Position numbers and translations under genes: made by a program. A DNA stretch of 15,349 nt from a virus: UHGV virus genome UHGV-2196677; one strand, given 5' to 3'. Under the pieces are notes generated by a model. That model searched no databases and was not told where the DNA came from. It worked only from the letters and a program-made list of their open reading frames with translations. Each line of letters starts with the position of its first letter. Position 1 is the first letter of the stretch. This document shows, piece after piece, positions 14,196-14,349 of this stretch.

Positions 14196-14349
14196 TGCGG
14201 GTTATTTTGGGGAGTTTGCGGGTTATTTGGGATGTTTTGCGGGTTATGCGATGCTTGAATAATGAACAGTGCATTTTGCAACATATTGATACTAAAGAAC
14301 AAAAAATAGTTAGCACGCTAAGATAACCCGGTAACCCGCATAACCCGCA
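14196..14349. repeat. second iteron cluster, an orphan and inverted copy of the origin architecture
   Basis: Three copies of TGCGGGTTA at 14196, 14217 and 14238 (21-bp spacing; extended TTTGCGGGTTAT, the reverse complement of ATAACCCGCAAA). A 72-bp AT-rich spacer, then three abutting direct copies TAACCCGG / TAACCCGCA / TAACCCGCA at 14323-14349. No rep gene adjacent. Confidence 0.65.

What the first reader, a model, noticed from the sequence alone, without database searches (positions are those of the whole stretch)
14196..14349. Second, inverted iteron cluster 10.8 kb from the origin with no adjacent rep gene
Cluster 1 (3433-3557) reads: abutting TGCGGGTTA x2, AT-rich spacer, then phased ATAACCCGCAAA x4. 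Cluster 2 has the mirror design: phased TTTGCGGGTTAT x3 at 21-bp intervals, AT-rich spacer, then abutting TAACCCG(G/C)A x3. It is therefore the origin architecture in inverted orientation. The two modules bracket the ssb / finO-like / cargo segment, and the phased iterons of both face inward. Possible meanings: a copy-control (handcuffing) locus, the origin remnant of a second head-to-head element, or boundaries of a cassette that can invert or be deleted by recombination between the modules.
Basis: seen in the sequence. Interest (0 to 1): 0.7.

Follow-up and report, generated by a model that had tools for sequence, protein, structure and literature searches.

The report
Displaced half of a satellite's replication origin
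The second repeat cluster is a real and conserved binding array for the island's own replication protein: it is one half of a two-part replication origin that sits next to the replication gene in related phage satellites, but here lies 10.8 kb away beside the DNA-packaging (cos) site.

Summary
The 8-mer GCGGGTTA occurs 13 times in the window against 0.39 expected: 6 in cluster 1 and 5 in cluster 2.

The window is a ~19.3-kb phage-inducible chromosomal island (PICI) in E. coli, inserted at tRNA-Gly next to yqeG. Its initiator is a SaPI-Rep-like DUF927 primase-helicase.

In 14 related islands from at least 9 genera, the origin directly after rep has two mirror-image halves. Module A matches cluster 1. 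Module B matches cluster 2. B is always followed by a conserved GTTTTGTWTATATA element ("T").

The window belongs to a sub-lineage in which A stays with rep, while B and T lie at the far end of the island. They sit just before a phiP27-type cos site and 485 bp from attR. So the "inverted" design is simply B's native orientation.

- All 17 A-only islands whose right end is available carry a cognate B. This includes one lineage with a different iteron and a swapped Rep C-terminal domain.
- In the window lineage, B's iterons have 1 change in 53 positions and its spacers 28 in 104.

Best reading: a functional, displaced origin half. It may even be the true initiation site, working like the P4 ori/crr pair. 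No inversion isoforms were found, and there is no second rep gene. This is a new variant of a known kind.

The parts
1283..3409 (+). The rep gene. It encodes a 708-aa DUF927 primase-helicase, the SaPI-Rep-like initiator. Its C-terminal ~100 aa track iteron specificity.
   Evidence: Pfam DUF927, E=2.5e-46. PDB 8tch 'Pathogenicity island protein', E=1.7e-14. phrog_1139 DNA primase. The C-terminal segment is 86-93% identical in GCGGGTTA-type Reps but 35-36% in TTGTCCCA-type Reps, although the core is 96-97% identical.
3433..3557 (.). It has two abutting TGCGGGTTA units (3433-3450), a 45-bp AT-rich spacer, and four reverse units at 3496, 3507, 3528 and 3549. It begins 24 nt after the rep stop codon. 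ssb follows directly.
   Evidence: Collinear with L003 16057-17945 (rep plus A) at 88% identity.
14196..14349 (.). Origin module B' (the finding). It has three phased TGCGGGTTA units (14196, 14217, 14238; 21-bp phase), a 76-bp AT-rich spacer (14247-14322), and three abutting reverse units (14324-14331 TAACCCGG, 14332-14340, 14341-14349).
   Evidence: 81% identical over 154 nt to the B half of the rep-proximal origin of an O157:H7 cf-PICI (L003 18001-18154). Iteron columns show 1/53 differences against 28/104 in the spacers, Fisher p=4.8e-5.
14350..14375 (+). The T element, CTGTTTTGTATATATATACGAAAAAT. It is the conserved flank of module B and is a candidate DNA-unwinding or priming element.
   Evidence: GTTTTGYWTATATA is unique in the window, with 0.02 expected. 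In the related loci it occurs once per origin, always 2-3 nt after B's last iteron. It is conserved in 14 origins that use at least 6 different iterons. It ranks among the least stable 20-mers of the window, but is not uniquely so.
14384..14463 (+). A phiP27-type cos site. The equivalent of the cohesive-end core is CGCCGCCTC at 14425-14433.
   Evidence: 84.5% identity to phage phiP27 21764-21845, which spans its annotated cos-site (CGCCCGCCCC). Conserved next to B' in L002, L004, L005, L006 and L007. The core is 1 nt shorter in the window lineage.
14834..14850 (+). The attR core, a damaged copy of the tRNA-Gly 3' end (TTCCCTTCGCC-GCTCCA). This is the right boundary of the ~19.3-kb island.
   Evidence: Island-free genomes join the tRNA-Gly region to window ~14834 onward. 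Comparison with the tRNA 3' end in L001.
14150..14195 (+). A conserved left flank of the B' block (consensus in related blocks TTCAGCCGTTCGGTGGCATCACTGGCCCCACTTTCCTGATG). Its function is unknown.
   Evidence: Shared by most right-end B' blocks, although the upstream genes differ.

Best explanation
Cluster 2 is module B of this island's two-part replication origin, together with its conserved flanking T element. In most relatives B lies directly after module A, downstream of the rep gene. In this lineage, B and T lie 10.8 kb away on the chromosome, or 8.4 kb the other way round the excised circle. They sit immediately before the cos site and about 0.5 kb from attR.

**Proposed mechanism (inferred).** After induction and excision, the Rep primase-helicase binds the GCGGGTTA iterons of both modules through its C-terminal winged-helix domain. 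At B' it melts AT-rich DNA, either the inter-iteron spacer or the (TA)n of T, and loads itself. Module A, next to rep, acts as the second Rep-loading site or as a cis-acting partner, possibly through Rep-mediated looping as with P4 ori and crr.

**Shown here.** The homology of cluster 2 to B; the conserved A+B+T architecture across genera; the strict retention of a cognate B+T in every island that has only A next to rep; and selective conservation of the iterons.

**Inferred, not shown.** Rep binding, melting, the site of initiation, and cooperation between A and B'.
For: 1. **Canonical origin is A+B+T.** It lies right after rep in L003, L002, L119 and 11 loci from other Enterobacterales genera. 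The strand pattern is always ++-----++--(-), whatever the iteron sequence.
2. **The window's B is relocated.** Blastn gives window 1671-3557 = L003 rep+A, window 14214-14367 = L003 B (which starts 56 bp after A in L003), and window 3588-3948 = L003 ssb.
3. **The split layout recurs.** It is found in other islands, including capsid-forming and helper-embedded ones, with A-to-B' distances of 2.2-10.8 kb and always the same orientation.
4. **A-only islands keep a cognate B'.** Of the A-only islands whose right end is available, 15 of 15 GCGGGTTA-type and 2 of 2 TTGTCCCA-type carry a cognate B' plus T. The six without a detectable B' are truncated before the cos site.
5. **Co-variation in L006 and L007.** The Rep core is 97% identical to the window's. 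The Rep C-terminal domain, the A iterons and the B' iterons have all switched together, while T and cos stay conserved.
6. **Selection on the iterons.** Pairwise identity is 95.6% in iteron columns against 84.1% in spacers. The window lineage shows 1/53 against 28/104 differences, p=4.8e-5.
7. **T is tied to B.** It is conserved next to B in 14 origins with at least 6 iteron types, and it is never found next to A.
8. **B' is dispensable with a foreign rep.** In islands with a non-cognate rep, B' can decay (L022, 21/53) or be cleanly deleted while cos is kept (L169).
9. **Published basis for the family.** In SaPI Reps the C-terminal winged-helix domain binds iterons. An origin there is at least 2 iterons on each side of an AT-rich region, pointing in opposite directions (PMC9371898; PMC6092414).
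10. **Precedent in P4.** The initiator alpha uses two clusters of the same iteron 4.7 kb apart. One of them, crr, lies directly downstream of the initiator gene (GenBank X51522 annotation).
Against: - No experiment bears on this island. Rep binding, melting and origin activity are all inferred.
- The co-variation rests on few independent lineages. Essentially there is one alternative iteron type (L006/L007), and many GCGGGTTA islands are close relatives.
- Part of the sample was found with a motif that requires T to be present.
- The same GCGGGTTA B'-T-cos block sits, mostly intact, at the right end of islands whose rep is of another type (L002, L004, L024, L039, L040/L043, L045). So the block can persist without a cognate resident Rep. 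It may travel as a passenger of cos.
- By the published SaPI/PICI definition, module A alone already looks like a complete origin, so B' might be redundant.
- T and the spacers are not uniquely unstable DNA in this AT-rich island.
Confidence: 0.55

Rival explanations
1. Portable 'replicate-and-package-me' cassette. B'(GCGGGTTA)-T-cos moves between islands as a unit. It lets any carrier be amplified in trans by a GCGGGTTA-type Rep from a co-resident capsid-forming PICI and be packaged by that element's, or a phiP27-like phage's, terminase. In the window the Rep simply happens to be cognate.
For: - The block is contiguous and conserved at the right end of islands that differ in integrase, insertion site and rep type. 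Those rep types include a RepA-family helicase and a P4-alpha-like rep.
- Iterons stay largely intact in several non-cognate hosts.
- The capsid-forming PICIs with P27-family TerS use GCGGGTTA-type Reps.
- E. coli genomes carry up to 5 copies of the block.
- Other ori-like iteron modules also gather near right ends (L004 ATGTCCCA; L006/L007 AAATGATCC).
Against: - It does not explain why every A-only island keeps a cognate B', nor why the L006/L007 lineage has a B' matched to its own Rep.
- In non-cognate islands B' can decay or be deleted while cos is kept.
- The intact non-cognate copies may only reflect recent recombination and the motif-based sampling.
Confidence: 0.15
2. Negative copy-control (handcuffing or titration) locus. 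Rep bound at cluster 2 pairs with Rep at cluster 1, or titrates Rep, and so limits initiation. This would resemble P1 incA or F incC.
For: The same iterons lie in a second array several kb away in cis, and those iterons are under selection.
Against: - Cluster 2 is not a plain extra array. In relatives it is an integral half of the origin, and it carries the conserved T element and an AT-rich spacer.
- PICIs replicate in a burst after induction to feed packaging, so stringent copy control is not expected (my own knowledge of SaPI/PICI biology).
- Islands never dispense with B, which fits a positive requirement.
Confidence: 0.12
3. Non-functional relic. A rearrangement or recombination with another island left half an origin stranded next to cos. 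It persists only through linkage to the essential cos and attP region. This includes the reader's 'remnant of a second element'.
For: The island family is highly mosaic. Non-cognate B' copies exist. L004 has antirepressor/Bro gene fragments and a further iteron cluster upstream of B', which looks like debris of another island.
Against: - In the window lineage the spacers have diverged by 27%, yet the iterons show 1 change in 53 positions, p=4.8e-5.
- T is intact.
- 17 of 17 A-only islands retain a cognate B'.
- There is no second rep or int to the right. The neighbour is the core gene yqeG.
Confidence: 0.1
4. Boundaries of a segment that inverts or is deleted by recombination between the two inverted modules.
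For: The modules are inverted repeats that bracket ssb, the finO-like gene and the cargo.
Against: - A synthetic inversion-junction query finds no place covering at least 80% of it in 5,426 complete E. coli genomes.
- The longest exact inverted match is 18 nt.
- Orientation is the same in all split islands.
- The only recombinase is the tyrosine integrase acting at att.
Confidence: 0.03

Closest known systems
SaPI/PICI replication origin: Rep-iteron ori immediately 3' of rep (Ubeda et al. 2007 for SaPIs, from my own knowledge; Fillol-Salom et al. 2018, PMC6092414, for E. coli PICIs; Rep structure and function in PMC9371898)
   Same: The island type is the same: int, AlpA-like HTH, Icd-like gene, DUF4222, a fused Pri-Rep, ssb, PerC and cos. 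The initiator family is the same (PDB 8tch hit). Each of the two clusters has at least 2 iterons on each side of an AT-rich region, pointing in opposite directions. Iteron sequence tracks the Rep C-terminal domain.
   Different: The published description places the origin only directly downstream of rep, and it is stated to have that organisation in all PICIs. Here, and in relatives, the enterobacterial DUF927-type origin is a double module (A+B) with an extra conserved flank (T). In this lineage B and T lie 2-11 kb from rep, next to cos. I found no paper in the searchable library that describes this.
Satellite phage P4 bipartite origin: ori plus crr, the cis replication region
   Same: Two clusters of the same short iteron lie several kb apart in cis on a small integrative satellite. 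One cluster (crr, 4291-4590) lies directly downstream of the primase-helicase gene. The other (ori, 9086-9809) is 4.7 kb away. crr is itself made of two repeated modules. From my own knowledge of the P4 literature: alpha binds both clusters and loops the DNA, and crr works at different distances.
   Different: P4 alpha shows no significant BLASTP similarity to the window's Rep (E=0.12), and the iteron differs (TGTTCACC). In P4 it is the initiator-proximal cluster that lies next to attP. The P4 modules are direct repeats, not mirror images. Related islands do exist with a chimeric rep carrying a P4-alpha-like helicase and C-terminal domain and P4-type iterons (L040/L043).
Plasmid systems with distant iterons: R6K gamma/alpha/beta origins activated by pi-mediated looping, and the P1 incA / F incC handcuffing arrays (from my own knowledge)
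   Same: Initiator-binding iterons lie at a second site in cis. Initiator-mediated pairing could give either long-range activation or inhibition.
   Different: Those initiators are not helicases and depend on host DnaA and DnaB. incA-type arrays lack origin elements, whereas cluster 2 has the full origin architecture plus T.

Membership tests
PICI/SaPI-type Rep-iteron origin | At least two iterons on each side of an AT-rich region, pointing in opposite directions | tested here: met
   Three forward units and three reverse units flank a 76-bp AT-rich spacer at 14196-14349. The definition comes from PMC9371898 and PMC6092414.
PICI/SaPI-type Rep-iteron origin | Iterons cognate to the element's own Rep, that is, the same as at the rep-proximal origin and tracking the Rep C-terminal domain | tested here: met
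   The same GCGGGTTA core occurs in both clusters. Rep C-terminal identity follows iteron type. A, B' and the Rep C-terminal domain switch together in L006/L007.
PICI/SaPI-type Rep-iteron origin | Located immediately 3' of the rep gene | tested here: not met
   Cluster 2 starts 10,787 bp after the rep stop codon. No rep lies nearby, and its right flank is cos, attR and yqeG.
PICI/SaPI-type Rep-iteron origin | Sequence homology to an origin of a related PICI | tested here: met
   81% identity over 154 nt to the B half of the rep-proximal origin in an O157:H7 cf-PICI.
PICI/SaPI-type Rep-iteron origin | Rep binds, melts the DNA and drives replication of a plasmid carrying the site | not testable with these tools
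   This needs EMSA or footprinting and a rep-ori plasmid maintenance assay.
P4-type bipartite origin (ori + crr) | Two clusters of the same iteron kilobases apart in cis, one of them directly downstream of the initiator gene | tested here: met
   Window clusters at 3433-3557 and 14196-14349. P4 layout from X51522.
P4-type bipartite origin (ori + crr) | Initiator is a P4 alpha homologue | tested here: not met
   BLASTP best E=0.12. The window's Rep instead matches a SaPI Rep structure, 8tch.
P4-type bipartite origin (ori + crr) | Both clusters required in cis, with initiator-mediated looping between them | not testable with these tools
   Only indirect support: no island in the sample lacks a cognate B.
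Iteron handcuffing / incompatibility locus (P1 incA type) | Extra iteron array that is not part of the origin and lacks origin elements | tested here: not met
   In relatives cluster 2 is an integral half of the origin. It carries an AT-rich spacer and the conserved T element.
Iteron handcuffing / incompatibility locus (P1 incA type) | Lowers copy number or exerts incompatibility | not testable with these tools
   Needs copy-number and incompatibility assays.
Invertible or deletable cassette bounded by inverted repeats | Alternative orientation or deletion isoforms exist in related genomes | tested here: not met
   No genome out of 5,426 has the predicted inversion junction. Orientation is constant in all split islands.
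phiP27/HK97-like cos site (the neighbouring element, not the finding itself) | Sequence homology to an annotated cohesive-end site | tested here: met
   Window 14384-14463 is 84.5% identical to phiP27 21764-21845, which spans the annotated cos-site. Cleavage was not tested.

The most novel reading that the evidence does not exclude
Enterobacterial PICI origins are bipartite and their halves can be separated. Module B plus the T element is the real site of unwinding and priming. Module A, next to rep, is a crr-like cis partner. The two can cooperate over 2-11 kb, a P4-like ori/crr logic reached with an unrelated, SaPI-type self-loading helicase. As a corollary, the B-T-cos block is a portable unit that joins the start of replication to the packaging site and can be exchanged between satellites.
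Probability: 0.3. Interest if true: 0.65.

Novelty: new variant of a known kind. Interest (0 to 1): 0.5.

Why it matters
PICI and SaPI origins are described as a single iteron/AT-rich unit lying immediately downstream of rep, and that layout is used as a defining trait of the family. Three things follow if the reading here holds.

1. **Origin definition.** In the enterobacterial DUF927-Rep lineage the origin has two halves plus a conserved flank. A whole sub-lineage works with one half up to 10.8 kb away. That would change how these origins are defined and searched for.
2. **A natural experiment.** The split layout would allow a direct test of whether a self-loading helicase-initiator can act through distant sites, by looping or as two origins.
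3. **Engineering.** It would tell anyone building PICI-based delivery vectors that rep plus the adjacent iterons may not be a complete replicon in these islands.

The tight B-T-cos linkage also hints at a link between where replication starts and where packaging starts.

Tried and rejected
- **Rfam** scan of the whole window at E<=1 found nothing, so no known RNA explains the conserved DNA right of cluster 2.
- **Lambda-type cosN** (GGGCGGCGACCTCG, up to 3 mismatches) gave only chance-level hits elsewhere. The cos turned out to be phiP27-type.
- **Sigma-70 promoter scan** found no promoter at cluster 2 or T. In L003, T abuts the Shine-Dalgarno sequence of the next gene. That argues against T being that gene's promoter (inference).
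- **Helix-stability profile.** T and the A spacer are among the least stable segments but are not unique, so this is not decisive.
- **P4 alpha homology** of the window's Rep was not significant.
- **PADLOC** on the three large cargo proteins gave no hit, so they are not a recognised defence system.
- **Inversion-junction search** found none.
- **EcCICFT073.** I tried to inspect the experimentally tested island in the CFT073 record, but my guessed coordinates landed in core genes. I did not pursue it.
- **Cognate versus non-cognate comparison.** An unbiased comparison of B' retention failed for lack of non-cognate loci reaching cos. The decay in L022 and the deletion in L169 are therefore only suggestive.
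- **Literature searches** found no description of a distal iteron cluster in PICIs. One query failed on a short term, and a P4 cosmid paper gave nothing useful on crr.

Full report
**1. The observation**

The 8-mer GCGGGTTA occurs 13 times in the window against 0.39 expected, and 0 of 200 shuffles reach that count. Six copies lie in 3433-3557 and five in 14196-14349.

Cluster 2 reads as follows:
- three TTTGCGGGTTAT units at 21-bp phase;
- a 76-bp AT-rich spacer;
- three abutting reverse units, the first of them an 8-nt TAACCCGG.

Cluster 1 reads as follows:
- two abutting forward units;
- a 45-bp AT-rich spacer;
- four reverse units at spacings of 11, 21 and 21 bp.

The repeat finder reports the mirror relation as inverted arms of 53 nt (74%) and 25 nt (88%). 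The description is therefore correct apart from small details.

**2. What the window is**

The window matches an E. coli chromosomal island between tRNA-Gly and yqeG. The gene order in the island (taken from the matching record L001; the window itself starts part-way in, within the Icd-like region) is:
- integrase, HTH regulator, antirepressor/BRO genes, Icd-like gene, DUF4222;
- a 708-aa DUF927 protein (window 1283-3409);
- cluster 1;
- ssb, a ProQ/FinO gene, and a frameshifted perC;
- three large genes;
- cluster 2.

Island-free genomes join the tRNA-Gly region to window ~14834 onward. The attR core is a damaged copy of the tRNA 3' end at 14834-14850. The island is about 19.3 kb.

The DUF927 protein matches a solved SaPI Rep helicase (8tch, E=1.7e-14) and PHROG 'DNA primase' families. 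It does not match P4 alpha.

This is a Gram-negative phage-inducible chromosomal island (PICI) of the kind described by Fillol-Salom et al. 2018. That paper places the origin immediately 3' of rep, as two iteron sets flanking an AT-rich region (PMC6092414).

**3. What cluster 2 is**

The cluster-2 region has homologues in 454 E. coli genomes.

*The canonical layout.* In an O157:H7 capsid-forming PICI (L003), the match lies directly downstream of rep. There the origin has two adjacent halves: module A, like cluster 1, and module B, like cluster 2.

The same dyad lies right after rep in 11 loci from Winslowiella, Cedecea, Rahnella, Pantoea, Citrobacter, Pectobacterium, Tenebrionibacter, Apirhabdus and an uncultured Enterobacteriaceae genome. 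Each locus has its own iteron sequence (GTGGGTTA, GTGGTTCA, TTGGTTCA, TTATCCCA, CGGTTCA). All share the strand pattern ++-----++--(-).

*The window compared with L003 (blastn).*
- Window 1671-3557 matches L003 rep plus A.
- Window 14214-14367 matches L003 B, which in L003 starts 56 bp after A.
- Window 3588-3948 (ssb) matches L003 ssb.

So the 'inverted' design of cluster 2 is the native orientation of B. Only its position has changed.

**4. What travels with it**

*The T element.* Two to three nucleotides after B's last abutting iteron there is a conserved element, GTTTTG(T/C)(T/A)TATATA(TA), which I call T. It is present in 14 origins with at least 6 iteron types. It is unique in the window at 14352-14365, where 0.02 is expected. 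It occurs once per origin in the related loci, and it is never next to A.

*The cos site.* Directly after T, window 14384-14463 is 84.5% identical to the region of phage phiP27 that contains its annotated cos-site.

So the right end of the island reads B' - T - cos - ~400 bp - attR. The same block closes other islands at other insertion sites, including L002, L004, L006 and L007 (the E. coli ones at tRNA-Pro) and L005 inside a prophage terL gene.

**5. Is it functional?**

1. *The split layout recurs.* A followed directly by ssb, with B'-T next to cos, is found repeatedly. A-to-B' distances run from 2.2 to 10.8 kb, and orientation is constant.
2. *A-only islands always keep a cognate B'.* I sampled by the B'-T-cos motif and, independently, by the ssb junction. 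Among A-only islands whose right end is available, 15 of 15 GCGGGTTA-type and 2 of 2 TTGTCCCA-type have a cognate B'. The six A-only loci without a B' stop before cos.
3. *Co-variation.* In L006 and L007 the Rep core is 97% identical to the window's, but the C-terminal ~100 aa are only 36% identical. The A and B' iterons have both changed to TTGTCCCA, with the same 21-bp and 9-bp geometry. T and cos are kept. In SaPI Reps the C-terminal winged-helix domain is the iteron reader (PMC9371898).
4. *Selection on the iterons.* Across 29 distinct B' sequences, iteron columns are 95.6% identical pairwise and spacer columns 84.1%. The window lineage has the most diverged spacers (28/104) yet only one iteron change in 53 positions, Fisher p=4.8e-5.
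5. *Behaviour with a foreign rep.* The block can decay where the resident rep is of another type: L022 shows 21/53 iteron changes. In L169, B' and (TA)n are cleanly deleted while cos is kept.

*Caveats.*
- Many islands are close relatives.
- The co-variation rests on essentially one alternative iteron type.
- Several non-cognate copies are intact (L002, L004, L024, L039, L040/L043, L045).

**6. Mechanism I commit to (confidence 0.55)**

Cluster 2 plus T is a working part of the island's origin. Rep binds it through its C-terminal domain, as it does at cluster 1.

T is conserved across iteron specificities, is tied to B and never to A, and contains a (TA)n run. For these reasons I think B'-T is where DNA is opened and primed, with cluster 1 as a second loading site or a cis-acting partner.

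The closest working analogy is satellite phage P4. There the initiator-proximal crr and the ori 4.7 kb away carry the same type-1 iterons.

Binding, melting, looping and the site of initiation are all inferred.

**7. Rival explanations**

- *Portable B'-T-cos cassette serving trans-replication and packaging (0.15).* It explains the non-cognate carriers. It does not explain the strict retention of a cognate B' in A-only islands.
- *Handcuffing or copy control (0.12).* It is not excluded. However, cluster 2 is an integral origin half that carries T, not a plain extra array.
- *Relic (0.10).* It is contradicted by the conservation of iterons against diverged spacers.
- *Invertible cassette (0.03).* A synthetic inversion-junction query found no match covering at least 80% in 5,426 complete E. 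coli genomes.
- *Separate neighbouring element with its own rep.* This is excluded, because the right neighbour is yqeG.

**8. Comparison with what is known, and novelty**

Cluster 2 meets the architectural and cognate-iteron criteria of a PICI/SaPI origin. It fails the positional criterion of lying immediately 3' of rep.

It works like the P4 ori/crr pair in layout, but the initiator is unrelated to alpha.

I found no description of a double A+B+T origin, or of a distal origin half, in the PICI papers available to me.

I rate it a new variant of a known kind, with interest 0.5. It is moderately surprising to a specialist, and it can be tested directly with a rep-ori plasmid assay and marker-frequency mapping.

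Noticed in passing
window 14384-14463 (core 14425-14433): A phiP27-type cos site lies directly after cluster 2 and T, although the island has no terminase or capsid genes. The equivalent of the cohesive-end core is 1 nt shorter in the window lineage (CGCCGCCTC) than in other islands (CGCCCGCCTC) and is CGCCCGCCCC in phiP27. This might affect packaging.
   Followed up: partly
window 5646-12993 and 13303-13585: The three large 'cargo' proteins (843, 686 and 918 aa) have no Pfam or PADLOC hits. They match PHROGs annotated as head or virion structural proteins and transglycosylase-like injection proteins, over their full length for two of the three and over the N-terminal ~270 residues for the 686-aa protein (phrog_992, 1145, 684). 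A small neighbouring gene is ~93% identical to a 'transmembrane anchored protein' gene of 39-45-kb Escherichia phages (phiv142-3, TL-2011b). So this satellite carries phage virion or ejection-protein genes rather than a defence system.
   Followed up: partly
L040 and L043 (IMG/VR contigs); rep-proximal iterons at L040 4391-4607: These islands encode a chimeric rep. The N-terminal ~138 aa resemble the window's Rep. The rest is 49% identical to P4 alpha residues 313-776. The origin uses the P4 type-1 iteron TGTTCACC. They still carry the GCGGGTTA B'-T-cos block at their right end.
   Followed up: partly
L004 17660-17830; L006 14389-14610; L007 13967-14190: Further ori-like iteron modules of other sequence types (ATGTCCCA; AAATGATCC, as inverted sets around AT-rich DNA) lie just upstream of the right-end B' block. 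None of them matches the resident rep's own iterons. The right ends of these islands seem to collect origin modules.
   Followed up: no
L169 ~14001-14030 (E. coli ETEC4077, tRNA-Pro island with a RepA-family helicase): B' and the (TA)n part of T are cleanly deleted, leaving '...cacatACGAAAAATTGCATTCAGG' followed by an intact cos. This natural deletion shows the block is dispensable when the resident rep is of another type.
   Followed up: partly
window 14834-14850: The attR copy of the tRNA-Gly 3' end lacks one C (TTCCCTTCGCC-GCTCCA against TTCCCTTCGCCCGCTCCA). This fits the 'damaged attR tRNA fragment' reported for PICIs in PMC10111431.
   Followed up: partly
window 14595-14665: About 70 nt are 84% identical to part of phage P1 rlfB / P7 rapB (annotated as a replication protein). 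The segment lies inside a ~190-bp stretch between cos and attR that L002 lacks. Its meaning is unknown.
   Followed up: no
window 397-406 and 420-429: Two copies of the palindrome TGTGCGCACA lie 23 bp apart in the early region, upstream of the Icd-like and DUF4222 genes. They look like an operator pair.
   Followed up: no
window 14443-14862 (- strand): RefSeq annotates a 139-aa hypothetical protein here. The ORF starts beyond the attR core (14834-14850), in flanking core DNA, and ends near the cos region. It has no Pfam or PHROG hit, and no CDS is annotated in the corresponding interval of L002. It is probably not a real gene. A weak terminator-like hairpin on the minus strand (14486-14469) is conserved next to cos.
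   Followed up: partly
L005 (E. coli OkiPb01704): This capsid-forming PICI is inserted inside a prophage terL gene (helper-embedded configuration). It has the same split origin. Its only detectable cos-like site lies after its own terL, next to B', rather than upstream of terS as in L003 and phiP27.
   Followed up: partly
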